A stretch of 64,000 nt of DNA from a virus (Duplodnaviria > Caudoviricetes), in IMG/VR virus record IMGVR_UViG_3300038549_000009, positions 259 to 64,258 of that record; one strand, given 5' to 3'. Shown here in pieces: positions 1,600 to 34,575 of the stretch. The position numbers and the translations under genes are program-made. Positions within the stretch are counted from its first letter, which is position 1; each line of letters begins with the position of its first letter. The notes under the pieces are model-generated. The model saw nothing but the letters and a program-made list of their open reading frames with translations. It was not told the DNA's origin and did not search any database.

Positions 1600-1618
1600 C
1601 GGGAACTCTGTCGCGGAA

Positions 1619-1647
1619 TTGACATCCAAGCATGGACCGCGTATCAT
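1619..1647 (+). promoter_or_regulatory. sigma70-type promoter
   Basis: TTGACA-N17-TATCAT, intergenic, upstream of the gene at 1670. Confidence 0.75.
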
Positions 1648-1669
1648 TAACTTCTCACGGGGGTGAATC

Positions 1670-2101
1670 ATGAGCGAAGCCGCTCAGCAGCAATCCGCAG
1701 GACAAACGAACGACGAGCTGATCGCGATCTACGTGCAGCTCCGCGACAAGAAAGACGCCGAAGCCAAAGCGCTCGACGCGCGCCTAGCTCCGGTCAAGGA
1801 AGCGATGGCCCGCATCGAACAGGTCATTCACCAGCGCCTCCTCGAGTCCGGCACGCAGGCATTCAAGACCGCGCAGGGCACGGCGTTCCTCAAGGAACAG
1901 ACCAGCGTCACCGTCAAGGACTGGGCCGGGCAGACGTTGCCGTTCATCATCCAGAACCAGCGTTGGGACTTGCTCGAATGCGGCGTCAACAAAACCGCCA
2001 CGCTCGCGCATATGGAAGCCAACAAGGGCGCAGTCCCGCCCGGCGTCAACTACAGCGCGCGGATGGTCGTGCAGATACGGCGCGGGAAGGACAAGGAATG
2101 A
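1670..2101 (+). CDS. conserved phage coiled-coil protein (possibly Gam-like)
   Basis: N-terminal coiled coil, then T..GT and PPGV motifs of a small protein usually found before SSB genes in such phages. Confidence 0.6.
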   Translation: MSEAAQQQSAGQTNDELIAIYVQLRDKKDAEAKALDARLAPVKEAMARIEQVIHQRLLESGTQAFKTAQGTAFLKEQTSVTVKDWAGQTLPFIIQNQRWDLLECGVNKTATLAHMEANKGAVPPGVNYSARMVVQIRRGKDKE

Positions 2102-2313
2102 AGCCGGCCACGCTCGAGCTGCTACTGAAATACATCGACGAGGCCATCCGGCTCAACGGGCACTCACACCACGGAACGAGCCCGTGGGCGCATGAAGTCG
2201 ACGTGCCCGCGAAGGAAATCGAAGCATTGAAACGCGAACTGCGCGATGCCATCTACAACGCGGAACGCGGAGAAGTTTACGATGGCACATACACTCACAT
2301 CATAGGAGAGTAG
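2098..2313 (+). CDS. hypothetical protein
   Basis: ATGA overlap with the previous stop; fills the gap to the next gene. Confidence 0.6.
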   Translation: MKPATLELLLKYIDEAIRLNGHSHHGTSPWAHEVDVPAKEIEALKRELRDAIYNAERGEVYDGTYTHIIGE

Positions 2314-2317
2314 ACCA

Positions 2318-3637
2318 ATGGGGACGCAACTCACTGTCATCAACGCGCCGCTGCCGGCGCATCTGCAAAAGCACTCCGAGCGCGCGAAGGCGGAAGCCGC
2401 GAGCGCCAAGGGTGGCATCAAGTCCGGCGGTTTCACGCGCATCTCGATCTCCGGGGGCAAGTTCCACTTGCACAAGGATAAAAAGTCGCGGCTGATTACC
2501 GACCCGCGCGATCCGTCGCTCCCGCTCATGAAGCTCGAGGTCGTCGCGATCCGCTCGAACCCGAACCTGAGCAAGCAGTTCTACGAGGGTGACTACTCGC
2601 CGGGCGACAACAAGGAACCCGACTGCTCCTCGGAGGACGGCATCACACCCGACGTGGCGCAGCCGAAGTCACCGACCTGCGCGAACTGCTACTTCAACAA
2701 GTGGGGCTCGAAGATCACCCCCGAAGGCAAACCCGCCAAGGCGTGCTCGGACAACAAGCGGCTTGTCATCCTGCCGCTCGCGGACCTGAACTACGAACCG
2801 CTCGGGTTCAACGTAACGCCCGGCTCGCTGAAGGCGTGGGGCGAATACGTCGAGGCGCTGGATAAGTCCGGGCGCGGCGTGTTCGGTGTCGTGACCGCGA
2901 TCACGTTCGATCCGCACGTCTCGTTCCCGAAGGTGAACTTCAACTACGTGCGCGACCTGACCGAGGCCGAGACCGACCTCGTGCTGAAGCGCGCGGACTC
3001 CCCCGAGGCCGAGAACATCGTCAACCCGAAGGCCGGGTTCCAGACAGCCCCGGCGCAGCCCGCCGTGCCGACCGAACCGGTCAAGCCACTGGCACAGAAC
3101 CATGTGCCGGCGACCGAAGCGGTCACGCTCGGCGGCGCAGGGTTCGCACCCCCGGTGGCCCCGACGCCCACGGCGCCTACGGCCCCGGCCCCCATCGCAC
3201 CGGCGTTCGCACCCCCGGTCGCACCGGCGCCCACGGCCCCGGCTACCCCGGTCGACCCCTACGCTGGCCATCCGGCCTACGTGAAGGTAGCCGTGGAAGC
3301 TGCCGGCGGGCTCGGGACGCCCTCGGGGGCGCAGGTCTTCGCCCAGTTGACCGCCGGCACTGGGGGGGCTCAAGTCCCCGCCAAGGGCCCCGGCCGGCCC
3401 CGTAAGGCCGCCGCTGCCCCAGCCGCTCCCGCCGCTGCCCCGGCCGCTCCCGTGGCCCCGCAGGCGCCCGCTGGCGCGTTCGGGCTCGCCCCGGAAGCTC
3501 CGGCACCGACGGCCCCCACGGCTGCCGCACCGGCGACCCCGGCGGGCGGCTTCTCGGCGGCGCCGGCGGCAGCCGTTGCCCCGGCCGGCCAGATGTCCGA
3601 TCTCGGCGCTCTGCTGGACGCGGCGCTCAAGGCGTAA
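2318..3637 (+). CDS. putative ssDNA-binding/annealing protein with Cys motif and Pro/Ala-rich tail
   Basis: RISI.GGKF, PDC.S.DG..PD, C..C..NKWGS, KAC motifs; located in replication module; GGAGAG RBS. Confidence 0.6.
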   Translation: MGTQLTVINAPLPAHLQKHSERAKAEAASAKGGIKSGGFTRISISGGKFHLHKDKKSRLITDPRDPSLPLMKLEVVAIRSNPNLSKQFYEGDYSPGDNKEPDCSSEDGITPDVAQPKSPTCANCYFNKWGSKITPEGKPAKACSDNKRLVILPLADLNYEPLGFNVTPGSLKAWGEYVEALDKSGRGVFGVVTAITFDPHVSFPKVNFNYVRDLTEAETDLVLKRADSPEAENIVNPKAGFQTAPAQPAVPTEPVKPLAQNHVPATEAVTLGGAGFAPPVAPTPTAPTAPAPIAPAFAPPVAPAPTAPATPVDPYAGHPAYVKVAVEAAGGLGTPSGAQVFAQLTAGTGGAQVPAKGPGRPRKAAAAPAAPAAAPAAPVAPQAPAGAFGLAPEAPAPTAPTAAAPATPAGGFSAAPAAAVAPAGQMSDLGALLDAALKA

Positions 3638-3722
3638 GGTTTCGCGGGACCACGGGAGCTAGGAGCCTGTCGGTTTAAACGAGGGAATTCGCGCCCTGCC
3701 CGCTTTTTTCTTGGAGAAGAAC

Positions 3723-4013
3723 ATGCTCGAATTCGAGCGCACCAAATTCACACGCGCGGTCAAGGAAAGCGGCCTCACTAAGACCGAGCTGAGCCTCCTG
3801 TTCGAGGTCTCGCGCCAGCAGATTTACAATCTGATCGCCGGCTCGAGCCCCCGCAGCGGGGCCGCAACGAGGCGCGCGAACATCTACTCCAGCGCGATCT
3901 GCGCACTGATCGACAAGAAAGTGCTGCCGTTCCCCGGTGCCATCGTGGGGGCGAAGCGCTACTGGTCACTGGGGAAGCTCAAGACGAAGCTCTACGACCT
4001 AGCCCGGCCATAA
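3723..4013 (+). CDS. Cro/XRE-like helix-turn-helix protein
   Basis: GLTKTELSLLFEVSRQQIYNL HTH pattern; GGAG RBS. Confidence 0.7.
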   Translation: MLEFERTKFTRAVKESGLTKTELSLLFEVSRQQIYNLIAGSSPRSGAATRRANIYSSAICALIDKKVLPFPGAIVGAKRYWSLGKLKTKLYDLARP

Positions 4014-4034
4014 CCTCGAGGCTCAGGGGAGGTC

Positions 4035-6929
4035 ATGGATACTAGCTCGTTCTTGAGCAAGGTATTGCCCGACAGCGGGCTCTACTTTGTCGAGATACCG
4101 CGCGGCGAGATGAAGGGCTTCGCGCACCACCTCTGCCAGTCAATCGCGGAGATGGTGCAGAAGGCTCAAATCTTCGACGAGGCCGGCCACACGGTCTACT
4201 TTGCGACGGCCGCCTACCGCGAGCCGTTCATCATCGTCGACGACCCGCGCAAGACCGGTCGCAAGGCGAAGCGCTCGCGCGTGCAGGCGAACGTGCGCGC
4301 GATCCGCGCGTTCTGGCTCGACCTCGACGTGGGCAAGAGCGAGCCCGACCGGCCGGCGAAGTATCCCGATCAGGCGGCGGCGCTCCAGTCGTTCGTGGCA
4401 TTCCTCAAGGAAACCCGGCTGCCGCAGCCGATGTTCGTCTCGAGCGGCTACGGCGTGCACGTCTACTGGCCGCTGACCGAGGAAGTCTCGCCGGAGAAGT
4501 GGAAGCTGACAGCCGAGCGGCTGAAGAAACTCGCTGCCGAGCGCCACCTCCTAACGGACCCGATGCGCACCGGGGACTCGGCCTCGGTGCTGCGCCCGGT
4601 AGGCACGACGAACCGCAAGGCCGGGGGCGCGCGGCCCGTGCAACTGATCCGGGACGCCGAGCCTGTAGCGCACGCGGCATTCGACCTCGCGCTGATCGGC
4701 GCGATGGAACGGTTAGGGGTGCCAGAAGTTCTCACGACGAACGAACGCATACGGAGACTCAATGACCAATTTCACGTTAAGCGAGAGCTGCCGCCTTCCG
4801 ACCATGTCCGTGTTGCAGAGCGTTGTGCGCAGATTAAAAAGATGCGCGACACCGGTGGTTGTATCCCGGAACCCACTTGGTATGCGGCTCTACAGGTTCT
4901 ACAGCACACGATCGGCGGCCGGACGATCGCTCATGAGTGGTCTAAAGGTTACAGCGGCTACTCCGTGGCGGAAACCGATCGTAAGCTCGATCAGGCCGCA
5001 GCTTTCGGCCCGGCATCGTGCACTACGTTCGAGGGCCGCAACCCGGAGGGCTGCCGGGGCTGTCCGTTCAAGGGACAGATTACTTCGCCAATCCAGCTCG
5101 GCGCGATTCTACCGGCTGCCCCTACAGCTCCAGCCGCTCCCGTGGTTCCAACCGGAGCTGGTGAGGGCGGCAGCGATGAACCGGATGTTCCGCCAGAGGC
5201 TCGACAACATGACGCTGGCGATCAGCCCGATCCTCCTCCACCCTTCGCCGTCGGAGGACCCGACGCCCCCGGCCTCTACATAAAGCTCGACGGCGATGTC
5301 CCGGTCAAGTTCTACGACCACACCCTTTACCCGACCAAAGTCATCTACGACGAGTTCGTCGGCGTCGAGCAGATCGAGGTCCGGCACTGGCTGCCGAAGG
5401 AAGGCTGGTGCACGTTCCGGTTCGAGGCCGCGACAATCGCGGACCCGAAAGCCTTCAACAAAGCGATGCGCGAGAACGGCGTGCAGCCGTATATGGACGC
5501 GCGCGTTGGCGACTTCATGAGGTATTACATGGACTCCTACATCCGGCGCTTGAAAGAGCGCAACCGCATCCAGCGGCTATTCACCAGCTTCGGCTGGCGC
5601 GACAAGGGCAAGGCATTCGTGCTCGGGAAGAAAATCTTCACGCCCGGCGGCGAGGAGACCGCCAGCGGTTCGAGCGCGAAGATCGGCGAGAATCTGGCCA
5701 CCCACGTCGGCCCGGCCGGCGAGTTCGCCAAGTGGTTCGACCTGACCAAGCTCCTGAACCGCCCCGAGTTCGCGCCGCACGCCTTCGCGTTCTGCACCGC
5801 GTTCGGTGCGCCGCTGATGGACATGATCGACTACAACGGCGTCACCATCGTGATGTATGGCAAGACCAACGGGGGCAAAAGCACGATGGCCCGGCTCGCC
5901 TCCTCCGTCTACGGGACCTCGACGTTCAACTGGATGGGCCCGAAGCCGACCGAGTTCGCGCTCTACAACAAGCTGGGCTCGCTGAACAGCCTGCCGCTCT
6001 ACATCGACGAGAGCACCAACATCCACCCGGAGATGCTGTCGATGGTCGTGTATCAGGTGGCGAACGGCACCTCGCGCGAGCGCCTGAAGCAGGACGCGAC
6101 TCCACGCGAGGTCGACACATGGAAGTCGATGCTGCTGGTCTCGACCAACCACAGCGTCTACGATCAGCTCGAGCAGTGGCGCCGTGACTGCGAACCCGAG
6201 AAGGTGCGCGTGCTCCAGTATGACTTCCCGGTCCTGAAGGAATTCGCCGAGCCCGCCGAGATCATCCGGCAGACGACGATCGACCACTACGGCCACGCCG
6301 GTGAGCCGTTCATCAAATACCTCGTGGCGAACCGCGAGCAGGTCAAGCTCGAGACGCGCAAGATGATCGAGGTGCTGGCGAAGCGCGCGAGCATCGAGGG
6401 CATGGAGCGCTTCATGGTGGCCGGCGCCGCCTGCACGCTGGTGGGCGCCTACCACGCCTACCGCCTCGGGCTGATCGCGTTCGATCCCCTGCCGCTCCTC
6501 CTCGACTGGGTGGCCGGGGCCATCGCCCAGTGCCGCCGGCGCATCCTCGACGCCCAGCGCGGGGCGCTCGGGACGCTCGCCGAGTTCTTGGACGATACGA
6601 TGTCGTGCCGGCTGGCCGTCTGCACGATCGGCAAGGATGTGCGCGCGGTGAAGCTCCCCGTCGGCTCGCTCACGCAGCGCGTCGACACCGACAAGAAAAA
6701 GCTCTGGATATCCCGGCAGGCGTTCCGCGCCTACTGCAACAAGCAGCGCGCGAACCCCGACGACGTGGTTGCCGAGCTGGTGGCCAAGGGTTACGCGAGC
6801 GGCGCGGACGTGCGCCGGATGCTCGGGGCCGGCGTGCCCGGCTACGAGGGCGCGCAGGTCCGGTGTCTCGAGATCGACCTGTCGGCGCCGGAACTTTCGC
6901 GCTTTGCCGAGGTCTCTGGTGGAGAGTAG
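4035..6929 (+). CDS. primase-helicase (AEP primase, Cys cluster, DUF927-type helicase region)
   Basis: WLDLD, SSGYGVHVYW, LRPVGT AEP motifs; C...C...CRGC; FGW, FGAPL, GKTNGGKST, IDE. Confidence 0.85.
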   Translation: MDTSSFLSKVLPDSGLYFVEIPRGEMKGFAHHLCQSIAEMVQKAQIFDEAGHTVYFATAAYREPFIIVDDPRKTGRKAKRSRVQANVRAIRAFWLDLDVGKSEPDRPAKYPDQAAALQSFVAFLKETRLPQPMFVSSGYGVHVYWPLTEEVSPEKWKLTAERLKKLAAERHLLTDPMRTGDSASVLRPVGTTNRKAGGARPVQLIRDAEPVAHAAFDLALIGAMERLGVPEVLTTNERIRRLNDQFHVKRELPPSDHVRVAERCAQIKKMRDTGGCIPEPTWYAALQVLQHTIGGRTIAHEWSKGYSGYSVAETDRKLDQAAAFGPASCTTFEGRNPEGCRGCPFKGQITSPIQLGAILPAAPTAPAAPVVPTGAGEGGSDEPDVPPEARQHDAGDQPDPPPPFAVGGPDAPGLYIKLDGDVPVKFYDHTLYPTKVIYDEFVGVEQIEVRHWLPKEGWCTFRFEAATIADPKAFNKAMRENGVQPYMDARVGDFMRYYMDSYIRRLKERNRIQRLFTSFGWRDKGKAFVLGKKIFTPGGEETASGSSAKIGENLATHVGPAGEFAKWFDLTKLLNRPEFAPHAFAFCTAFGAPLMDMIDYNGVTIVMYGKTNGGKSTMARLASSVYGTSTFNWMGPKPTEFALYNKLGSLNSLPLYIDESTNIHPEMLSMVVYQVANGTSRERLKQDATPREVDTWKSMLLVSTNHSVYDQLEQWRRDCEPEKVRVLQYDFPVLKEFAEPAEIIRQTTIDHYGHAGEPFIKYLVANREQVKLETRKMIEVLAKRASIEGMERFMVAGAACTLVGAYHAYRLGLIAFDPLPLLLDWVAGAIAQCRRRILDAQRGALGTLAEFLDDTMSCRLAVCTIGKDVRAVKLPVGSLTQRVDTDKKKLWISRQAFRAYCNKQRANPDDVVAELVAKGYASGADVRRMLGAGVPGYEGAQVRCLEIDLSAPELSRFAEVSGGE
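4762..5283 (+). CDS. candidate overprinted gene in the +1 frame of the primase
   Basis: 173-codon ORF with GGAG shortly before ATG; primase third codon positions turn T/A-rich across this interval. Confidence 0.45.
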   Translation: MTNFTLSESCRLPTMSVLQSVVRRLKRCATPVVVSRNPLGMRLYRFYSTRSAAGRSLMSGLKVTAATPWRKPIVSSIRPQLSARHRALRSRAATRRAAGAVRSRDRLLRQSSSARFYRLPLQLQPLPWFQPELVRAAAMNRMFRQRLDNMTLAISPILLHPSPSEDPTPPAST

Positions 6930-6952
6930 AATGGCAATTTTGGAGCTACAGC

Positions 6953-7171
6953 ATGAAACGCGGAACGATCATCATGACGGTAACAGTCTATTGGTGGCTG
7001 GTGCCGGCAGCGATGACGTGCGTTGCGTTGATGGCCGTGGCGAACGGGGTAAGGGATTACCTCAACGGTGACTACCTATGGAGGGACGCTGATGGACACG
7101 CTACTGAAGGCGACGGTGAGGGAATTTTTCGGGATGCTGACGAGCAAGCGGGCGACGGTGAGCTACGCTGA
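6953..7171 (+). CDS. small membrane protein
   Basis: TGGAG RBS; hydrophobic stretch VYWWLVPAAMTCVALMAVA. Confidence 0.45.
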   Translation: MKRGTIIMTVTVYWWLVPAAMTCVALMAVANGVRDYLNGDYLWRDADGHATEGDGEGIFRDADEQAGDGELR

Positions 7172-7364
7172 CAAGCGCGACGCGGGCCGCATCAGCGCGG
7201 TGCTCACGCTCATGAGCGAGCTGGCCAACGAGATGCCGGTCGTGCCGCTGATATCACTGCCGGCCGAACGAGCAGGCGCGAAGGCCGCGAAGGAAGACCC
7301 GGCGCAAGCGAAGACCGGAGACGAGAGCGCAAGACCGTCCGACGAACTACCCGGTCAAGCCTGA
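7092..7364 (+). CDS. hypothetical protein
   Basis: GGAGGG RBS, normal codon usage. Confidence 0.5.
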   Translation: MDTLLKATVREFFGMLTSKRATVSYADKRDAGRISAVLTLMSELANEMPVVPLISLPAERAGAKAAKEDPAQAKTGDESARPSDELPGQA

Positions 7365-7365
7365 C

Positions 7366-7554
7366 ATGGACTCCGGCGTTTGGCTGTTAGTCGTGCTGGT
7401 CGTCCCCCTCAACGGGGACGGCCTTATCATGGGCGGGAGCCAACCCCACCCGAACGAAGACGCCTGCCGCGCCGCGAAGGCTGAAGCCCTGAAGTTCGAC
7501 CCGGCGTGGCGCCGCGCGCAGCATTACGTCATGGCGCGTTGCACACCGAAATGA
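7366..7554 (+). CDS. small exported two-Cys protein
   Basis: N-terminal hydrophobic segment, EDAC..A and CTP; resembles 53502-53672. Confidence 0.55.
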   Translation: MDSGVWLLVVLVVPLNGDGLIMGGSQPHPNEDACRAAKAEALKFDPAWRRAQHYVMARCTPK

Positions 7555-7745
7555 CTGCAAAGGTCTACAAGTTCCCGCTCTGCTACCGGCGCCGGATGAT
7601 CTACCAGCCGGCGCGCCTGCGCTGGTATTGCAAGACGTGCGGCAAGCTCATGCCGCATCGGGAGGAATTCACTCCGCCGCCCCCGGCGTTTTCGGACGCG
7701 CAATATAGCGCGACGATCGCCATGACGGACACTCCGATCTGGTAG
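7551..7745 (+). CDS. small zinc-ribbon-like protein
   Basis: WYCKTCG motif; ATGA coupling. Confidence 0.5.
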   Translation: MTAKVYKFPLCYRRRMIYQPARLRWYCKTCGKLMPHREEFTPPPPAFSDAQYSATIAMTDTPIW

Positions 7746-7814
7746 CGGGGGCAGGGATCGAACCTGCGACCGTCGGCGTATGAAGCCGCTGCTCTGCCTC
7801 TGAGCTACCCCGCG
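7740..7814 (-). tRNA. tRNA with CAT anticodon (Met; initiator-like acceptor stem)
   Basis: Cloverleaf: CGCGGGG/CCCCGCT acceptor, GCTC-AGAGGCA-GAGC D arm, TTCATAC loop, GCAGG-TTCGATC-CCTGC T arm, encoded ACCA. Confidence 0.92.
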
Positions 7815-7817
7815 CTA

Positions 7818-7890
7818 GAAAAAGAACCGGAACCTGTGACCGGGGGGAGGGGGAGGGCAGGCTCCGGTGTCAGCTTTTGACCGACACCGG
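7818..7890 (-). ncRNA. structured tRNA leader or small RNA ending in a terminator-like hairpin
   Basis: CCGGTGTCGG/CTGACACCGG hairpin overlaps ACCGGAGCCTG/CAGGTTCCGGT hairpin followed by TCTTTTT. Confidence 0.5.
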
Positions 7891-7891
7891 C

Positions 7892-7900
7892 ATTATATCA
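7892..7900 (-). promoter_or_regulatory. extended -10 promoter for the leader/tRNA
   Basis: TGA-TATAAT on - strand, overlapping the stop codon of 7898-8764. Confidence 0.6.
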
Positions 7901-8764
7901 CGGGATAGCGCCGACCGCCGAAAGGTAGGCGCTCAGGATTGAGTAAAGCGCTGCCGCTTCCGTGCTCGTCAGGGAACCGCCGATAGAACACGCACCGATC
8001 CGGGGCTCGCGACTGACCCATGTGAACCCGGCGAAGCTCGCGCCGATGGAAAAGTTGGAACTGACCAGCGCGGTGCTCGTTCCAGTGTCGGTATCGGACT
8101 CAACTCCGTCCCGGTAGAACTGCGCCGCTGTTGCCCCCGAGCGATTGGCTAGATACATCCCGCGCACTACTGAAGATGTCGCAGAGTCCATCTGGCCGCT
8201 GCCGTTGATCCACCCGAATCCTTGAGAGCCAGCCAACACCGACTTCGGCGTGATTCTGCCGACGGTATCGCCTCCCGGAAACTCGTTGAAGTTCCGCGCG
8301 TCGAACCCGCCTGCGCCTTGGCCGTCGCCTTCACTGGTCGCAAAGATGGAGGTGTGGCCGCTGTTCTGCGTCATCACAGGCACGGTATTGAAGTCCGGTC
8401 CCAGCAAGTAGCTCGCGTTGGCGTTGATCTGGCCGTTGCCGGTGAAGCCGCCATCGGCCGTGAATGCCATGCTGTTGATTCTCGTAAGCAGCCCGAACGA
8501 CGGGTCTTTCCAGTTCAGCCGCCCCGCCTGTTCGTCGTGTGCCGCGTGCACGTAGAGCACGCCCTGCTTGGTCCAGAGGCCGGCAGCCATCAAATCGCTG
8601 ATGGTGTCATTTATCAGCGTCTTGCGCGCCTCGCTCGGTTCGACCGTCATGGCCGCGAACAGCGCTTCCGACTCGGGCAGGAAGCCGACAGCGCCCCCGG
8701 CCGTCGACTGAACGGCAGCAATGACAGCGAGCGTGCGACTCAGACGTGCACGGCGATCGGACAC
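7898..8764 (-). CDS. virion-associated beta-sandwich (LamG/ConA-like) protein
   Basis: GFTGNG...YL, ANRSGA, IGGSLT.TE...LY pattern of phage lectin-fold proteins; end of late arm. Confidence 0.55.
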   Translation of the reverse strand: MSDRRARLSRTLAVIAAVQSTAGGAVGFLPESEALFAAMTVEPSEARKTLINDTISDLMAAGLWTKQGVLYVHAAHDEQAGRLNWKDPSFGLLTRINSMAFTADGGFTGNGQINANASYLLGPDFNTVPVMTQNSGHTSIFATSEGDGQGAGGFDARNFNEFPGGDTVGRITPKSVLAGSQGFGWINGSGQMDSATSSVVRGMYLANRSGATAAQFYRDGVESDTDTGTSTALVSSNFSIGASFAGFTWVSREPRIGACSIGGSLTSTEAAALYSILSAYLSAVGAIP

Positions 8765-8773
8765 GGAACCCTC

Positions 8774-8920
8774 CTAGTAGCCGGGGCGCCGCTTGCGCGG
8801 CTTGCGCGGCTTCGCGCCGCGAGCGGGATGATGGGGGTAGGGCATGGCGCGCTTCAGTGCTGGCGCGGCGTGTCCCGCAGTGCGCGGCGGGATGTCGCTA
8901 TACTGGTTGAACGTGGCCAC
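8774..8920 (-). CDS. 48-aa peptide: capsid N-arm homolog fused to a basic tail
   Basis: GTG start 1 nt after upstream stop with GGGG RBS; MATFNQYSDIPPRTAGHA vs capsid MATYNEYGDITPRTAAHA. Confidence 0.7.
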   Translation of the reverse strand: MATFNQYSDIPPRTAGHAAPALKRAMPYPHHPARGAKPRKPRKRRPGY

Positions 8921-8921
8921 A

Positions 8922-9089
8922 TCAGTGCCCCATCGGCTTGCGGGGCTTCGCGCCGTAGGCACGACCGCCGTGTTTGCGGTAGGTGCTGAGCGCGATTGCA
9001 ATGGCCTGATCTTGCGGCTTGCCAGCGTGCATCTCTTTCGAGATGTTCGCGCCGATGTCCTTTTTCTTTCCTGATTTGATAAGCGGCAT
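8922..9089 (-). CDS. small basic protein (MPL.K...NIS.E...GKP..QA.AIA type)
   Basis: GAGGGG RBS; recognisable small phage protein pattern. Confidence 0.7.
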   Translation of the reverse strand: MPLIKSGKKKDIGANISKEMHAGKPQDQAIAIALSTYRKHGGRAYGAKPRKPMGH

Positions 9090-9091
9090 GG

Positions 9092-9490
9092 TTATCCCCT
9101 CGCGATGGCGCGTGCTGACACGGTAGCGGAATCCGCCGCTGCGGAAGCCTGAATGCGGATCGAGTAGAACGGGAGCACGTTCAGCAGGAGCCACCCGCTC
9201 GCGCCGGCGCCGAGGATCGTCAGGTCCCCGCTCGCGTCGACCACGATGCCGGCGGGCGTTGTATAGTCCGCAGCTACCGACAGGATCGTCTGGTAGGTGT
9301 CATCCGGCGTCATGCGCGCCTGCACCACGAACTGATCGAACGCCTGAGTGACCGGGCGCACCGCCACGCCCATGAACGCGGCGTCGTCGACGTTGATCTC
9401 GAGGATCGTCGTGAGTGAAGCGGCCGGCACTACCACGCCCGTCGCGTCGACGATTACCTTGCCCGGTGTTACGCTTTGAGTCTGTGCCAT
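9092..9490 (-). CDS. virion beta-sandwich protein
   Basis: AGGAG RBS; beta-rich with C-terminal IRIQA motif. Confidence 0.6.
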   Translation of the reverse strand: MAQTQSVTPGKVIVDATGVVVPAASLTTILEINVDDAAFMGVAVRPVTQAFDQFVVQARMTPDDTYQTILSVAADYTTPAGIVVDASGDLTILGAGASGWLLLNVLPFYSIRIQASAAADSATVSARAIARG

Positions 9491-9505
9491 CGGTTTTCTC
9501 CTAAA

Positions 9506-9967
9506 TTAAACGCCGCCGCCCGTGAGGCCGCGAATCATGTCGTGCAATTTCTGTTGCTGCTTGATGATGTCTTCCTGAGTCGGAGCCGCCGGAGCCGGCG
9601 CTGGTGCTGGCGCGGGTGCCGGAGCCGGCGCCACCGGTGCGGGGGCGGGGGCGGGGGTGGGTGTCCCGTATGGCAACGGAGCCGGGACAATTTCACGACG
9701 CCCCTGAATGAAATCCAGCAAGCCGGGTTGTTGCGCAGGAGGAACACCGAAATTGGGCCCGCGCCGATCGAGCGCACTGCCGAACAGGAGGTTCAAAAAG
9801 GTATCGAACATGCCTGTGCCGGGCAGCTCCGTCGGAGGCTTGGCCCCGCCTACCGGGGTCGCCGGGGTCGCCGGCGTCACCGCCGCCGCAGCTTGCGGGC
9901 GCGCGCCCATGCTCGCTCGACTCTCGATCGGGAGCAGGTCGTTGTAGAGGGGATCGGTGGAGGCCAT
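9506..9967 (-). CDS. Pro/Ala-rich hypothetical protein
   Basis: ATG 8 nt after TATAAT (- strand, 9976-9981); (PA)n tract. Confidence 0.6.
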   Translation of the reverse strand: MASTDPLYNDLLPIESRASMGARPQAAAAVTPATPATPVGGAKPPTELPGTGMFDTFLNLLFGSALDRRGPNFGVPPAQQPGLLDFIQGRREIVPAPLPYGTPTPAPAPAPVAPAPAPAPAPAPAPAAPTQEDIIKQQQKLHDMIRGLTGGGV

Positions 9968-9997
9968 GAGGGTCAATTATACGCCCGAGGGGGACCC

Positions 9998-10576
9998 TTA
10001 GCTAGTCTTGCCTATCGTCGGGCCGGAGTTCTTGTTCCGGACGCCGAACCACCAGACGACGCAGGTCGTGGTCAGATAGATGATATTGCCGACAACCATC
10101 TTCCAGACCTCGAGCGCAGCGGCCGTGTCGAGGTCTTCGGCGTTCAGCACGGTCTTCGCCTGCCACCACACGAACGTCGTCAGGGCGCAAAGGTAGACGG
10201 TGAGAAGCGGCCGGATGCAGCCCCGGAACGCATCGAGCAGGACCAGCACCCACGCCTGCCCACGCGAGGGCTTCACGCCGTCGGAGTAGCGCTCGGGCTC
10301 GAGTTTGTAGCTCGCGGCGAACGCCTCGGCGTCAGCCACGGCTTCCTTGCCGGCCGCCTCAACTTCCGCGACCTTCGTCTTCGCAGCCCACTCCTGCTTC
10401 ATGATCTCCGCGTCGACCCGACGCATTTCGACGGCGTTCTTGTGGCGATCTCTCTCGATTTCGATATCGAGCTGCTTGTTCTTGTAGTCCGCGAAGCGCT
10501 GCGCGATCATGCCGATCAGGCCGGTCGCGCCGCCCGAGAAGATGTTGCCGAAAACCAGTCCGAGTAGTTCAAGCAT
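9998..10576 (-). CDS. holin-like membrane protein (3TM/GTA holin type)
   Basis: RG.IRPLLT and WWFG.R motifs, TM helices, adjacent to lysin. Confidence 0.65.
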   Translation of the reverse strand: MLELLGLVFGNIFSGGATGLIGMIAQRFADYKNKQLDIEIERDRHKNAVEMRRVDAEIMKQEWAAKTKVAEVEAAGKEAVADAEAFAASYKLEPERYSDGVKPSRGQAWVLVLLDAFRGCIRPLLTVYLCALTTFVWWQAKTVLNAEDLDTAAALEVWKMVVGNIIYLTTTCVVWWFGVRNKNSGPTIGKTS

Positions 10577-10994
10577 TGACGATCTCCAAATTGAAAGGTT
10601 GACATCCCATTGTCGTTTCAAACCGCCGCACCGCCGGCGCCGACAGCAGTAGCGCCTTCTGTCCTTCGATCCATCCCAGCCGCTCGCCCAGTGCGATGCA
10701 GCCCTGCAACTGTGACCGGTAGCCCTTGGCGCTATCGCCCATCAGGTTCGCCGAGTGCGCCCGGATGCCCACTCTCGGGTCCGTGCCAAGCAGCAGATAC
10801 ATCATTCGTTTAAACGTCCTGCTCCACGTCCACACCACCGGGTAGGTCCCGAGCGGTATGCACGAGAGCCCCGTCGCGTTGTCCCGCCACGGCTGCTCGC
10901 CGGTGAACAGGACCAAGCCGGTCGGCACGATGATCCGGCCGAACGTGCCCTGATCCCCGGTCTCGTGCCGCTCGAGCCTGACGAGCGGCAGCAC
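10569..10994 (-). CDS. DUF5675-type putative endolysin
   Basis: GTFG, E.PW.DN...SCIP.G.Y, R.GI..H.AN, GCI.LG motifs. Confidence 0.75.
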   Translation of the reverse strand: MLPLVRLERHETGDQGTFGRIIVPTGLVLFTGEQPWRDNATGLSCIPLGTYPVVWTWSRTFKRMMYLLLGTDPRVGIRAHSANLMGDSAKGYRSQLQGCIALGERLGWIEGQKALLLSAPAVRRFETTMGCQPFNLEIVNA

Positions 10995-11185
10995 TATCCC
11001 CTCGACACAGGCTTGAGGGCTACCTTGCCGCCGGCAGTAGTCAACCCGCCGTTACACAGCTTCTCAGTCGTGAATGCGAGGTCGAGCGCGTGCGCGGCGA
11101 CGCGCTGTGTCGCCTCGCGCATCTCCATGCGCTCCAGCTCCCGCTTCGGGCTGAGAAACTTGAGGACCTTCACACACATCTTCAT
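10994..11185 (-). CDS. hypothetical protein (lysis cassette)
   Basis: translationally coupled on both sides. Confidence 0.5.
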   Translation of the reverse strand: MKMCVKVLKFLSPKRELERMEMREATQRVAAHALDLAFTTEKLCNGGLTTAGGKVALKPVSRG

Positions 11186-11409
11186 AGGTGCACCCTTCCG
11201 GACAGCGCGACCAGCGCGAGCTTCACCTGATCGAGCGCGTCCTTCACTGCGGTCAACATGGCGAGCGCTTCCTTGCGGTCGACGCGGTTCTCACTGCGCT
11301 CGGTCCAGAACAGAAACATCGTCGCGGCGTTCGTCGCGAGCAGCACGGCCACCGCGATGTTCTCGGGCTTGCCGAGGATGTCGAACAGAAACTTGAAAAG
11401 CGTCTCCAT
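11182..11409 (-). CDS. putative holin (single TM)
   Basis: IAVAVLLATNAATMFLFW TM plus coiled tail; GAGGTGG RBS; upstream of lysin. Confidence 0.55.
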   Translation of the reverse strand: METLFKFLFDILGKPENIAVAVLLATNAATMFLFWTERSENRVDRKEALAMLTAVKDALDQVKLALVALSGRVHL

Positions 11410-11417
11410 GATCCACC

Positions 11418-11633
11418 TCAGTCGTGTATCGCGTTGGTCGAGTCGGCACGGGTCTTCCGCTTGAGCGCCCGGAACACGTTGAGCGCCGGATAGCGGAGCA
11501 GGCCGAACGTGAAAATCGTCGTGAACAGCACGACCGCCGCCGACACCGTCGTGAGGAGGGCAACCTCAATCGGACCCGGATGCGTCTCCGCCGAGACCGG
11601 GACCGACGACACGGGATTTTCAGAAGGCAGCAT
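11418..11633 (-). CDS. small membrane protein
   Basis: long hydrophobic stretch. Confidence 0.45.
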   Translation of the reverse strand: MLPSENPVSSVPVSAETHPGPIEVALLTTVSAAVVLFTTIFTFGLLRYPALNVFRALKRKTRADSTNAIHD

Positions 11634-32289: not shown

Positions 32290-33276
32290 TTAGTTCGTCG
32301 CTGCGACTTCCAGCCGGACCATGAACGCGTCGTTCAGGATCACGGCGTTTTGCATGACCTTCCAGCCCGCCGTCCCGCGCTGGGCGAGCGGGTCGCCTGC
32401 AACGGGCTTCGGGTTGACGATCATGATCGTCGCGGCAGACTTGCCCTTCAGCGGAACGATGCCGTAGGCGTCCTTTGCGAGGATCAGCACCGGATACACG
32501 TCGGCGAGGCCGCCGCCGGAGGTCACCATCGCGCCCGCTGCGCCACCGGCGCTGGCAAAGGCGGTGAAGATGGTGGACCGGAGGTAGCGCACGTCTTCGA
32601 CGGAGCCGATCTCATTCGCCCACGGAGTCGTGGTCCCGTATTGCTTGGTCGGGATGAAACCCGGAATGTTCCGGATATCGTTTTCCACGTCGACGTGACA
32701 GATCGCGATGTAGGCTGCCTCGACCGGCTCGGTCCGGAAGTCCGGGGTGGACTTGACCACGCTGGTGAAAGGCGACGCGTTCTGGCGCTTGAGCGCGCGG
32801 GTGCCCTTGCGCTGGAGCGCGAGGGTGATCGGGGTGTTGACATCGGAGCGCATGGTGCCGTTGGCGTAGAACACGTTCGTGCCCGCCTTGATGACGTTCC
32901 AGCGCACGGTCTCGAGCGTTTGCGCGGCTTGTTCGCCGAGCAGACCCGAGGTTTCCATGAGGTAGGGGTCCTCGTGGGTGTCCAGAATCACGTCGGTGAA
33001 CTCGACGTAATCGCCGAACTGCTCAAGGGTGACCGGCACGTCGGTGACGGTGACCTTTTTGCCCGTGGGCGTGACGCCTTCGACGAGCGGCGTGGTGGCG
33101 AGAGCCAGCGCGTTGTAACGCCGGAAGATCGCGACCTTCGTGCTCTTGGTCGGCAGTTGGTAGACCTGCCCAAACTTCTCGATCACGAGATGGGGCAGAC
33201 CGCGCCGGAGCAACTTCGTGACTGCGTGCGCGGCGGTGCGGGGCGTGATGTCCCCGTATTCGTTGTAGGTGGCCAT
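32290..33276 (-). CDS. major capsid protein, N4-gp56 family
   Basis: YGDI.PRTA, FRRY, L.EGVTP, EIG.V..VR, DPL.QRG..GWK motifs. Confidence 0.92.
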   Translation of the reverse strand: MATYNEYGDITPRTAAHAVTKLLRRGLPHLVIEKFGQVYQLPTKSTKVAIFRRYNALALATTPLVEGVTPTGKKVTVTDVPVTLEQFGDYVEFTDVILDTHEDPYLMETSGLLGEQAAQTLETVRWNVIKAGTNVFYANGTMRSDVNTPITLALQRKGTRALKRQNASPFTSVVKSTPDFRTEPVEAAYIAICHVDVENDIRNIPGFIPTKQYGTTTPWANEIGSVEDVRYLRSTIFTAFASAGGAAGAMVTSGGGLADVYPVLILAKDAYGIVPLKGKSAATIMIVNPKPVAGDPLAQRGTAGWKVMQNAVILNDAFMVRLEVAATN

Positions 33277-33516: not shown

Positions 33517-34575
33517 TCAATCATCGTTTGCGAGGGCTTCCGCAAAGCCGCTGTCGAAGTCGTTGGGGTCCTTGGAACCAGAGGGTGAGACTTTCGTCGC
33601 CTTGGTCCTGACGGGCTCCAGCGCTGCAACACGACTTGGGTCGGCTGCCGGTTCAGCGGGCTTGCCAGTCGGCTTGCCTGCTGCTGGTGCTGTCCCGCCC
33701 TGCGACTCTGGCGATGGCGAGGAACTTCCTGTTGCGCTCTTGTAGCGACCGACTAGGTCGATCACATCTTGAGCTGAGCCTGTATCATACGCCTGTTTCA
33801 GCGCAGGCTGCAAGTAGGCGGGTTGAGTGTCGATCCATGCCGGAACTTTCTCGATGACGACATCGTAGTCCGGAATGGCCCCACGCAACGTGGCCATGTG
33901 CGAATTATACGAGACTTCGTAGTCCCGTTCAAGTAGCGGATTGACCTGCTGGTTGACGTGCCCGAGGACGTTAGCCAGCGCGGTTATCAGCTTGTTCTGC
34001 GCCTCGTGGTTGACGCGGCGCTGGTAATAATCGAGCACCTTGGCGACCTCGGGATAGTTCTCTTTGACGGCCGCCAAGATCGTCTTGTCCTCCTCCGTCT
34101 CGACGAACTCGGGGAGCTTGAACTCCTCGGGCGCGGGAGCCGCCGGCTCGGCCGCAGGCGCCGGGGCAGCGGCAGCGGGCGCAGCGGCAGCGGGCGCCGG
34201 GGCAGCGGCAGCGGGCGCAGCGGGCGCAGCGGGCGCAGCGGGCGCAGCGGGCGCAGCGGCAGCGGGTGCCGGGGCAGCCGCAGGCGCAGCAGCCGGGGCA
34301 GCCGCAGGAGCGGGCGCAGCGGCGGCAGCGGCGGCAGCATCCGAAGCCGCAGCATCATCCGCCGCATCCTTGTCAGCGGCGGCAGCGGGTGTAACCGGCG
34401 CGGGAGCGGGCGCGGGCTTTTGGTCACCCTTCTCGTCCTCGACATCCAGCCCGGCGAGCGCCTTCGTCCACTCGTCGTCGAACTCAGCCTCCGGAGTTAC
34501 CGGAGCAGCGGGTGCCGCAGCCGGAGCCGCAGCGGGTGCCGGCGCAGCAGCCGGCGTGGTGATCTCGGTCGTCAT
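33517..34575 (-). CDS. scaffolding protein with long Ala/Pro low-complexity tract
   Basis: between portal and capsid; PD, W...QP.Y, G....V..L...YK, acidic FD.GF tail. Confidence 0.75.
   Translation of the reverse strand: MTTEITTPAAAPAPAAAPAAAPAAPVTPEAEFDDEWTKALAGLDVEDEKGDQKPAPAPAPVTPAAAADKDAADDAAASDAAAAAAAAPAPAAAPAAAPAAAPAPAAAAPAAPAAPAAPAAPAAAAPAPAAAAPAAAAPAPAAEPAAPAPEEFKLPEFVETEEDKTILAAVKENYPEVAKVLDYYQRRVNHEAQNKLITALANVLGHVNQQVNPLLERDYEVSYNSHMATLRGAIPDYDVVIEKVPAWIDTQPAYLQPALKQAYDTGSAQDVIDLVGRYKSATGSSSPSPESQGGTAPAAGKPTGKPAEPAADPSRVAALEPVRTKATKVSPSGSKDPNDFDSGFAEALANDD

What the first reader, a model, noticed from the sequence alone, without database searches (positions are those of the whole stretch)
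8774..8920. Mini-gene copying the major capsid protein N-arm onto a protamine-like tail
Seen: a GTG-started 48-aa ORF, MATFNQYSDIPPRTAGHAAPALKRAMPYPHHPARGAKPRKPRKRRPGY, 24 kb from the capsid gene whose N-terminus is MATYNEYGDITPRTAAHAVTKLLRRGLPH. 13 of the first 18 residues are identical, and several identical residues use different codons (ACC/ACG, TAC/TAT, CCC/CCG, ACC/ACT, GCC/GCG, GCA/GCC), which points to protein-level selection rather than a decaying DNA copy. The ORF track hides it inside a longer spurious call. Inference: a capsid-mimic peptide that could tether DNA to the inner shell, tune assembly, or decoy a host or satellite factor that senses the capsid protein. I know of no described equivalent.
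Basis: partly seen in the sequence, partly recalled or inferred. Interest (0 to 1): 0.85.

Follow-up and report, generated by a model that had tools for sequence, protein, structure and literature searches.

The report
Capsid-arm copy fused to basic micro-gene
A 48-codon phage gene joins a copy of the first 18 residues of the phage's own capsid protein to a tiny, conserved, strongly basic peptide gene; the join is real, but it is seen in one genome only and any role of the capsid-like part is untested.

Summary
ORF 8774-8920(-) starts like the major capsid protein (MCP, 32290-33276(-)): 13 of 18 residues match, and it is the best non-self tblastn match in the genome (E 1.8e-4).

The ORF has two parts.
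- **Codons 26-48** are a separate micro-gene. A syntenic metagenome contig (L077) carries it alone, as a 26-codon ORF with its own ribosome-binding site. Between the two copies dN/dS is about 0.1. It is a duplicate of the basic tail of the upstream 55-aa phrog_2423 gene.
- **Codons 1-18** are a diverged DNA copy of MCP codons 1-18 (39 of 52 bases). It is in frame, start codon on start codon, and replaces the 8-base spacer seen in L077.

The copy keeps 9 of the 11 (near-)invariant N-arm residues, but changes the invariant Gly8. A neutrally decaying copy is disfavoured (p about 0.016), unless the donor was a foreign MCP.

No other genome searched has this extension. An overlapping ATG in another frame could express the micro-gene without it.

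My reading is that a real chimeric small gene exists (about 0.45). Capsid mimicry or head targeting is possible (about 0.2) and untested.

The scan noted capsid N-terminus copies before on other DNA. I re-checked one here: T4 gene 61.1 against gp23.

The parts
8774..8920 (-). 48-codon composite ORF (GTG start, TAG stop)
8867..8920 (-). Codons 1-18: diverged copy of MCP codons 1-18 (ATFNQYSDIPPRTAGHA after the start)
   Evidence: 13 of 18 residues and 39 of 52 bases identical
8846..8866 (-). Codons 19-25 (APALKRA): linker of unknown origin, with no significant DNA similarity to the MCP gene
   Evidence: 106 of 500 shuffles score as well
8774..8845 (-). Conserved micro-gene: internal ATG (8845-8843) plus 22 codons and the stop; basic, Pro-rich, ending PGY
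   Evidence: Homologous 26-codon ORF L077:658-738 with its own GAGG site and GTG start; sd 8.5 against nd 3.5 over 23 codons
8798..8818 (-). 21-base stretch (GAKPRKP) repeated from the tail of the upstream gene
   Evidence: 20 of 21 bases identical to 8934-8954, read; the same paralogy is seen in L077
8922..9089 (-). 55-aa phrog_2423 gene (related to DUF6496) with a basic tail; parent of the micro-gene's tail. Its TGA stop lies 1 base before the GTG of the composite ORF
   Evidence: phrog_2423 E 9e-14; 82% identical to L077:482-646; 388 representatives in the family
8854..8922 (-). Alternative-frame 22-codon ORF. Its ATG overlaps the upstream TGA (TGATG), and it stops 8 bases before the micro-gene ATG. 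It is a possible relay that would bypass the capsid-like frame
7898..8764 (-). 288-aa tail-fibre-like gene. Its ribosome-binding site (AGGAGGG) overlaps the stop of the composite ORF
33223..33276 (-). Source-type segment: MCP codons 1-18, the most conserved part of the N-arm (Y7 G8 D9 I10 R13 T14 A15 invariant)
32290..33276 (-). Major capsid protein gene (328 aa, N4 type)
   Evidence: phrog_1357 E 1.7e-57; PF25209; Foldseek to N4 capsid
33517..34575 (-). Scaffolding protein gene with a conserved acidic C-terminal motif, DPNDFDxAFxEA. This is the candidate partner of the MCP N-arm (inference)

Best explanation
This is a real small gene of chimeric origin.

Its core is the last 23 codons: a conserved, strongly basic, proline-rich micro-gene. 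That micro-gene began as a duplicate of the basic C-terminal tail of the upstream phrog_2423 gene. In a relative it is translated on its own.

In this phage lineage, the 8-base spacer with the ribosome-binding site in front of the micro-gene was replaced by 76 bases. The first 54 of those bases are a copy of codons 1-18 of the phage's own capsid gene. The copy is in frame and sits start codon on start codon.

The product is therefore most likely a 48-residue protein with three parts: the most conserved piece of the capsid N-arm, a 7-residue linker, and the polycationic tail.

- **Shown:** the copy, the chimeric build, the conservation of the core, and the tight gene packing.
- **Inferred:** translation from the GTG; weak protein-level constraint on the capsid-like part; and the mechanism.
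- **Inferred mechanism:** the tail binds nucleic acid or an acidic surface, as its parent's tail presumably does. The N-arm motif brings it to the assembling head by using a contact of the capsid N-arm. In other HK97-fold phages that contact is the docking site of the scaffold C-terminus.
For: **The copy is real.**

**The core is a gene.**
- L077 has the order 132 aa, 55 aa, 26-codon ORF, tail-fibre homologue. The 26-codon ORF has GAGG 5 bases before its GTG.
- Window against L077 over 23 codons: 8.5 synonymous against 3.5 non-synonymous differences, pS 0.48, pN 0.07. The ratio is lower than in the flanking genes (0.17, 0.24 and 0.30).
- Fisher p lies between 1e-4 and 1.4e-3.
- The length differences between the two copies are in frame (3 codons in all).
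- No antisense ORF covers it in L077.

**Origin of the tail.**
- The 21-base repeat and the shared ...GAKPRKP... link it to the upstream gene.
- Tails of this family are K/R/P-rich. 11 of 98 short representatives end in Tyr.
- P0039 has the tail doubled in frame.
- L099/L100 have a separate 38-codon ORF ending KKPKKPMGY after their phrog_2423 gene.

**The capsid-like part.**
- It keeps 9 of the 11 invariant or near-invariant N-arm positions of 34 MCPs.
- 9 of 14 base differences fall at third codon positions (p 0.017).
- In the neutral-copy simulation the joint probability is at most 0.016 at any age.
- The homology begins at the start codon and ends at the end of the conserved motif.

**Translation.**
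- GGGG lies 7 bases before the GTG, and the upstream stop is 1 base away.
- The internal ATG has no ribosome-binding site.

**Head context.**
- The phrog_2423 domain forms the N-terminus of BcepB1A gp26, annotated as a head maturation protease with a nested scaffold.
- In 80alpha and SPP1 the scaffold C-terminus docks on the N-arm helix (passages read).
Against: - The extension is known from this one genome. The only syntenic relative (L077) lacks it.
- Two complete relatives have no second N-arm copy: G002 and G007 (one pattern hit on its contig).
- All 49 IMG/VR pattern hits are true MCP N-termini.
- The copy changes Gly8, which is invariant, and puts Pro where every MCP has Ser or Thr. Gly16 and Pro20 fall in what is helix 12-29 in the MCP model. 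A faithful structural mimic is therefore doubtful.
- An ATG overlapping the upstream stop opens a different 22-codon frame that ends 8 bases before the micro-gene's ATG. The micro-gene could be expressed without the capsid-like frame.
- The selection test assumes the donor was the resident MCP. At synonymous sites in codons 7-18 the copy is no closer to the resident MCP (26 of 36 bases) than to the family average (25.7 of 36).
- No protein of 26-84 aa or of 85-2000 aa in the protein collection scored as a relative of the 48-aa ORF. Its own translation was not among the candidates, so no gene call for it is on record there.
- Conservation of the core rests on one pairwise comparison of 23 codons.
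Confidence: 0.45

Rival explanations
1. This is a recombination scar that serves only as a leader. A 54-base piece of an MCP gene landed in front of the micro-gene and was tolerated because expression of the micro-gene survived. Expression could run through the in-frame GTG, or through the overlapping ATG relay ORF followed by re-initiation at the internal ATG. Under this reading the capsid-like residues have no role of their own.
For: - L077 shows that the micro-gene works without the extension.
- The extension is found in no other genome searched.
- Gly8 is changed to Ser and Ser/Thr11 to Pro, both at positions invariant in MCPs.
- The relay ORF ends 8 bases before the ATG. That is the same spacing as between the 55-aa stop and the micro-gene start in L077.
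- Synonymous sites carry no lineage signal, so a foreign donor is possible.
Against: - The differences are biased towards third codon positions, and the neutral-copy simulation gives at most p 0.016.
- 9 of the 11 conserved N-arm residues are retained.
- The homology runs exactly from the start codon to the end of the conserved motif and is in frame.
- Residues 2-6 resemble only the window/L001 lineage among 36 distinct MCP N-termini.
Confidence: 0.35
2. Nothing here is translated. The 157 bases between the 55-aa gene and the tail-fibre gene are a spacer made of duplicated fragments, open by chance.
For: - At 64% G+C, a 48-codon stretch stays open by chance with probability about 0.27.
- No called protein in the protein collection scored as a relative of the ORF.
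- No Pfam or PHROG family matches.
Against: - The micro-gene shows 8.5 synonymous against 3.5 non-synonymous differences, and the length differences are in frame (3 codons in all), between two genomes whose flanking genes have pS of 0.44-0.57.
- It has its own ribosome-binding site in L077.
- No RNA structure is apparent (z 0.45).
- No promoter-like or terminator-like site lies on the minus strand.
Confidence: 0.08
3. It is a decoy or blocker for a host or satellite factor that recognises the capsid N-arm, such as a capsid-sensing defence.
For: Only the retained conserved motif, plus recalled examples of defences triggered by capsid proteins (CapRel, Lit/Gol; from memory, not from a call).
Against: - A free copy of a trigger would be expected to activate a sensor, not silence it.
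- The gene sits in the late structural operon next to the tail-fibre gene.
- The host is unknown.
- Nothing was tested.
Confidence: 0.05

Closest known systems
T4 gene 61.1 product (NP_049649.1, 54 aa, 'hypothetical protein')
   Same: It is a small stand-alone ORF whose sequence copies an N-terminal stretch of the phage's own major capsid protein and is followed by a charged, Lys-rich tail. I checked this here. Within the T4 genome its only non-self match is gene 23, at about codons 58-95 (45% identity, E 1.4e-5).
   Different: - It has no sequence relation to this ORF.
- It copies a T4-type MCP region. From memory, that region lies near the maturation cleavage site.
- It lies beside the primase gene, not in the structural operon.
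- Earlier notes of this scan (unchecked by me) say it is conserved across T4-like lineages, whereas this extension is known from one genome.
- Its function is also unknown. Searches found no study of it.
Capsid targeting sequence of the T4 internal proteins
   Same: A short N-terminal tag brings otherwise unrelated, often basic, proteins into the scaffolding core, so that they end up inside the head with the DNA (PMC3012670, passages read). This is the nearest analogue of the mechanism proposed here.
   Different: In the passages read, the T4 tag is not described as a copy of the capsid protein. It is removed by the head protease (recalled). No protease or cleavage site was looked for here. 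Packaging of this product has not been shown.
phrog_2423 small proteins with basic tails, related to DUF6496
   Same: The last 23 codons are a paralogue of this family's tail: shared GAKPRKP, a 21-base repeat, and a K/R/P-rich tail ending in Tyr.
   Different: The ORF lacks the family's conserved N-terminal domain of about 44 residues, and no PHROG or Pfam hit is found. The family's function is unknown. One member forms the N-terminus of a Mu-type head protease/scaffold.
SaPI1 CpmB competing with the phage 80alpha scaffold at the capsid N-arm
   Same: A small protein exploits the interface between the capsid N-arm and the scaffold C-terminus to change assembly (PMC5644958, passages read).
   Different: CpmB imitates the scaffold side of the interface, whereas this ORF copies the capsid side. 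CpmB comes from a satellite, whereas this ORF is the phage's own.
Polycationic DNA-condensing peptides (protamines, adenovirus core peptides; recalled)
   Same: Composition only: 8 of the 23 tail residues are Arg or Lys and 6 are Pro (counted).
   Different: There is no homology and no evidence of DNA binding or of presence in the virion.

Membership tests
HK97-fold major capsid protein, N4 gp56 type | Complete HK97 fold (A and P domains, spine helix, E-loop) | tested here: not met
   The ORF has 48 residues. Similarity ends at residue 18. The true MCP is 328 aa and gives a confident model (pLDDT 85.8) that matches N4 capsids.
HK97-fold major capsid protein, N4 gp56 type | N-arm motif Y-G-D-I-[ST]-P-R-T-A-A-H-A | tested here: inconclusive
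   9 of the 11 invariant or near-invariant positions are kept. Gly8 is Ser, Ala16 is Gly, and position 11 is Pro.
phrog_2423 / DUF6496-like small proteins | Conserved N-terminal domain (MPL.K.G..K...NI..E..AGKP..QA.AIA) | tested here: not met
   No PHROG or Pfam hit for the 48-aa ORF. The domain is in the upstream 55-aa gene.
phrog_2423 / DUF6496-like small proteins | Basic K/R/P-rich C-terminal tail, often ending in Tyr | tested here: met
   Shared GAKPRKP and a 21-base repeat with the upstream gene. 11 of 98 short representatives end in Tyr, 3 of them in GY.
Capsid N-terminus copies of the T4 61.1 kind | Small ORF with significant similarity to its own phage's MCP N-terminal region | tested here: met
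   E 1.8e-4 within its own genome. The T4 61.1 counterpart gives E 1.4e-5.
Capsid N-terminus copies of the T4 61.1 kind | Conserved in related phages and following each phage's own MCP | tested here: not met
   Absent from L077, G002 and G007 and from all 49 IMG/VR pattern hits. The closest relatives could not be fetched.
Capsid N-terminus copies of the T4 61.1 kind | Sequence homology to gp61.1 itself | not tested
   The two proteins were not aligned with a tool. By eye I see no resemblance.
T4-type capsid-targeted internal proteins | N-terminal targeting tag that binds the scaffolding core, with the product found inside the head | not testable with these tools
   This needs virion or procapsid proteomics. 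The one complex prediction gave no verdict (reported under Tried and rejected only).
T4-type capsid-targeted internal proteins | Removal of the tag by a head maturation protease | not tested
   I did not search the window for a prohead protease or for cleavage motifs.
Independent conserved micro-gene (window and L077) | Same position, own start signals, purifying selection in its frame | tested here: met
   Synteny and the GAGG-GTG start in L077. pN/pS is 0.14 over 23 codons, Fisher p at most 1.4e-3. Only two genomes are available.

The most novel reading that the evidence does not exclude
The phage made its own head-targeting tag. By copying the most conserved piece of its capsid protein's N-arm onto a polycationic micro-protein, it lets that peptide use a contact of the capsid N-arm, for example with the acidic scaffold C-terminus (DPNDFDxAFxEA). 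The peptide would then be built into procapsids, where the tail meets the packaged DNA. Together with T4 gene 61.1 and the other capsid N-terminus copies noted by this scan, this would point to a recurrent, undescribed class of capsid-mimic small proteins. Here the class would be caught at birth, with the untagged ancestor form still present in a relative.
Probability: 0.2. Interest if true: 0.8.

Novelty: new variant of a known kind. Interest (0 to 1): 0.55.

Why it matters
If the capsid-like part works, this locus shows step by step how a phage can build a new head-associated protein from parts of two of its own genes. First the tail of a small basic protein is duplicated into a micro-gene. 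Then 18 codons of the capsid gene are captured as a tag. The intermediate form, the micro-gene alone, survives in a relative, which is rare for cases of gene birth.

It would also add an independent, non-T4 example to a set of small ORFs that copy the N-terminus of their own capsid protein and carry charged tails. My searches found no study of such ORFs.

If the capsid-like part is only a scar, the locus still documents two things: a conserved 23-26-codon basic micro-gene for which no gene call is on record in the protein collection, and a clean example of how fragments of highly expressed genes get reused as leaders.

Tried and rejected
**Complex prediction.** Scaffold residues 230-352 (alignment A4) were folded with the 48-aa ORF. 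The tool gave no answer (score 0.00, controls not run). This is no evidence either way.

**Sequencing runs.** Three runs were listed and no RNA holder was listed. Contigs were laid.
- X1 (possibly the source) covers the locus without differences.
- X2 contigs cover 8133-8817 and 9031-9178, but nothing was laid on 8818-9030. The state of the extension in that strain is unknown.
- X3 touches only short conserved parts.

**Neighbourhoods of the closest tail-fibre relatives.** These are P0002 (82% identical; 83% in the MAFFT alignment) and P0003 (79%; 78%).

**Scans of IMG/VR, metagenome and genome collections**
- 288-aa protein in IMG/VR: no relative.
- 132-aa protein, alone and as an alignment: only one distant contig, L028/L079, which has no micro-gene.
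- Genome contigs with the 132-aa alignment: none.
- RGAKPRKPRK pattern: 0 hits in IMG/VR. There were 2 hits in genome contigs, both chance matches inside unrelated frames.
- Metagenome scan: L077, plus one distant locus (L078, 25% identity) that I did not examine.

**Protein searches with the 48-aa ORF.** Near lengths gave no candidate. Longer lengths gave 40 candidates, none scoring.

**A weak second match of the ORF in G001** (E 0.005) is a low-complexity stretch with stops, antisense to another ORF.

**RNA element.** The fold z-score is 0.45. No promoter-like site was found, and no terminator-like site lies on the minus strand.

**Ideas rejected**
- A frameshift or readthrough fusion with the 55-aa gene. 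The frame offset differs between the window (+1) and L077 (+2).
- Homology of the copy extending to residue 29, as in the tblastn alignment. The PYPH stretch belongs to the micro-gene, as L077 shows.

**Other limits.** The PDB sequence search with the MCP alone gave nothing. The profile search and the fold search gave N4-type capsids, but their N-arms did not align. Supplementary files of the papers were not opened.

Full report
**What the window is.** The window is all but 258 bases of a 64,258-base virus record. Its late genes lie on the minus strand. They include the terminase, portal, an Ala/Pro-rich scaffold (33517-34575), the major capsid protein (MCP, 32290-33276), a 2601-aa virion protein, and tail genes. 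The MCP is of the phage N4 type. A profile of 34 relatives hits capsid proteins of about 400 aa in the PDB (E about 1e-13). The AlphaFold model (pLDDT 85.8) is closest to the N4, DEV, Moo19 and B2 capsids (Foldseek E 1e-19 to 1e-17).

**The observation.**
- ORF 8774-8920(-) has 48 codons and starts with GTG.
- tblastn of the MCP against its own genome ranks this locus first after the MCP gene's own match (E 1.8e-4). With the first 40 residues as query, E is 8.8e-7.
- At the DNA level the homology is a single ungapped block of 52 bases, 39 of them identical. It runs from the start codon to codon 18. Its score is 39, against at most 29 in 500 shuffles. Beyond codon 18 there is none.
- Both the coordinates and the similarity are confirmed.

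**Gene packing.**
- Upstream lies a 55-aa gene (8922-9089) of PHROG family 2423 (E 9e-14). Its TGA stop is one base before the GTG.
- Downstream, the ORF's TAG lies inside the AGGAGGG ribosome-binding site of a 288-aa tail-fibre-like gene.
- The minus strand here has no promoter-like or terminator-like site and no unusual RNA fold.

**The key comparison.** One metagenome contig, L077 (1424 bases), has the same gene order: a 132-aa homologue (71% identical), a 55-aa homologue (82%), then a short ORF, then the tail-fibre homologue.
- The short ORF has 26 codons. It has its own GAGG five bases before a GTG, and it lies 8 bases after the stop of the 55-aa gene.
- It aligns with codons 26-48 of the window ORF, whose codon 26 is an ATG.
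- Over 23 aligned codons there are 8.5 synonymous and 3.5 non-synonymous differences (pS 0.48, pN 0.07). This is at least as constrained as the flanking genes. The length differences are in frame, 3 codons in all. Fisher p lies between 1e-4 and 1.4e-3.
- L077 has no antisense ORF over it.
- The basic 'tail' is therefore a conserved micro-gene in its own right. The capsid-like part is a 5' extension present in the window and absent from L077: 76 bases in the window where L077 has 8.

**Where the micro-gene came from.**
- It shares GAKPRKP, and 20 of 21 bases, with the 3' end of the 55-aa gene next door. The same paralogy is visible in L077.
- The phrog_2423 family (388 representatives at E up to 1e-3) consists of a conserved domain of about 44 residues plus a variable K/R/P-rich tail.
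- Of the 98 short members among the best 150, 11 end in Tyr.
- One member (P0039) has its tail motif doubled in frame.
- One IMG/VR lineage (L099, identical to L100) has a separate 38-codon ORF ending KKPKKPMGY, with an AAGGA site, 81 bases after its phrog_2423 gene.
- The micro-gene is therefore best read as a duplicated family tail that became its own ORF.
- The family's function is unknown. In Burkholderia phage BcepB1A the domain forms the first 36 residues of gp26, annotated as a head maturation protease with a nested scaffold, between the minor head proteins and the capsid gene. This is a hint of a head-assembly context. It rests on annotation only.

**The capsid-like part.**
- In 34 aligned MCPs (45-96% identical to the window's), Y7, G8, D9, I10, R13, T14 and A15 are invariant. 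P12, A16, H17 and A18 are nearly so.
- All 49 IMG/VR matches to a pattern that leaves positions 8 and 11 free are true MCP N-termini, with Gly at 8 and Ser or Thr at 11. Of these, 44 are full length, 4 are cut by a contig end, and 1 ends after 145 codons.
- The copy keeps 9 of the 11 conserved positions. It has Ser8, Gly16 and Pro11.
- Residues 2-6 (ATFNQ) resemble only the window/L001 lineage (ATYNE) among 36 distinct N-termini. The donor therefore belonged to this sub-lineage.

**Is the copy under selection?**
- Of 14 base differences in codons 2-18, 9 are at third positions (p 0.017). pS is 0.69 and pN is 0.14.
- The parent MCP can change only synonymously, so some of this bias is expected even for a decaying copy.
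- I simulated a neutral copy beside a constrained parent. The joint probability of at least 9 third-position and at most 5 other differences never exceeded 0.016 at any age.
- This disfavours plain decay, but it assumes the resident MCP was the donor.
- At synonymous sites of codons 7-18, the copy is no closer to the resident MCP (26 of 36) than to the family mean (25.7 of 36). A recent copy from a diverged relative cannot be excluded.

**Is the capsid-like frame translated?**
- For: GGGG lies 7 bases before the GTG, which is comparable with the sites of the scaffold and 55-aa genes. The upstream stop is adjacent. The internal ATG has no ribosome-binding site.
- Against: the upstream TGA overlaps an ATG (TGATG) that opens a different 22-codon frame. 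That frame ends 8 bases before the internal ATG, the same spacing as in L077. Termination and re-initiation through this relay could express the 23-residue micro-protein alone.
- No protein of 26-84 aa or of 85-2000 aa in the protein collection scored as a relative of the ORF, and its own translation was not among the candidates.

**What the N-arm does.**
- The model puts residues 12-29 in a helix with pLDDT 83-87.
- In 80alpha, the scaffold's C-terminal helix-and-hook packs on the N-arm helix. In SPP1, the scaffold binds the N-terminal helix, which later unfolds into inter-capsomer contacts (passages read).
- The scaffold of this phage group ends in a conserved acidic motif, DPNDFDxAFxEA. It is present in the window and in 5 relatives, and in weaker form in a sixth.
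- The copy covers the stretch before the helix and its first two turns, then breaks it with Pro20.
[quoted passage not shown] This is inference. The one complex prediction returned no verdict.

**Comparison with what is known.**
- Earlier notes of this scan describe small ORFs in other phages that copy their own MCP N-terminus, several with basic tails. They name T4 gene 61.1.
- I checked that one case. Within T4, gp61.1 (54 aa, Lys-rich end) matches only itself and gene 23, at about codons 58-95 (45%, E 1.4e-5).
- My literature searches found no study of such copies.
- The present ORF is not homologous to any of these. It differs in being assembled from two resident genes, and the untagged form is still present in a relative.

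**Verdict.**
- Probabilities: translated 48-aa fusion with some constraint on the capsid-like part, 0.45. Scar or leader, with only the micro-gene mattering, 0.35. Nothing translated, 0.08. Decoy, 0.05. Head-targeting mimicry specifically, about 0.2.
- The main limit is sampling.

Noticed in passing
G002:C1:10098-10253(-) inside ORF 5998-11631(-); L093:2501-2743(+) inside ORF 1141-4269+: In two complete relatives (75% and 71% MCP identity), the phrog_2423 homologue (51 and 80 aa) lies in another frame, wholly inside the long open frame of the giant virion-protein gene. In the window it is a separate gene beside the tail fibre, and it is the only copy. This could be a nested gene, or two genes whose frames run together by chance.
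   Followed up: partly
L028:1428-1856(+): In a more distant relative, the gene after the 132-aa homologue encodes a 142-aa protein beginning MAAFNKFQDF. That resembles the first ten residues of the mini-ORF and of the MCP (MA.FN.[YF].D[IF]). Its own MCP is not on the fragment, so I could not test for a second capsid N-terminus copy.
   Followed up: partly
L099:2543-2659(+), identical in L100: A 38-codon ORF ending KKPKKPMGY, with an AAGGA site, lies 81 bases after a 51-aa phrog_2423 gene and upstream of what look like packaging genes. It may be another split-off basic tail.
   Followed up: partly
P0039 (79 aa): This phrog_2423 family member has its tail motif (GLGAMPKKPMM) twice in frame. This shows that tail duplication recurs in the family.
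   Followed up: no
L114:3001-4737(+) (BcepB1A gene 26): The phrog_2423-type domain forms the first 36 residues of a 578-aa protein annotated as a head maturation protease with a nested scaffold gene. Other family members are fused to an InPase domain (P0092, P0114), and one hits DUF6496.
   Followed up: partly
window 33517-33570(-) and relatives (alignment A4): The scaffold proteins of this phage group share an acidic C-terminal motif, DPNDFDxAFxEA, despite 22-39% overall identity outside the closest relative.
   Followed up: partly
G000 first about 175 bases and last about 175 bases (outside or at the edge of the window): The start of the record recurs at its end with a few base differences. 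I saw this by eye in the printout. It may be a terminal repeat or an assembly overlap.
   Followed up: no
L055:4783-5220(+): One IMG/VR relative has an MCP frame that stops 145 codons after the N-arm motif, unlike the 44 full-length ones. This may be a frameshift or an assembly error.
   Followed up: no
window 9092-9490(-): The 132-aa gene two genes upstream of the mini-ORF has a weak, sub-threshold hit to the XM1 gp53 minor capsid protein family (E 0.012, 15.8 bits against a cut-off of 27).
   Followed up: no
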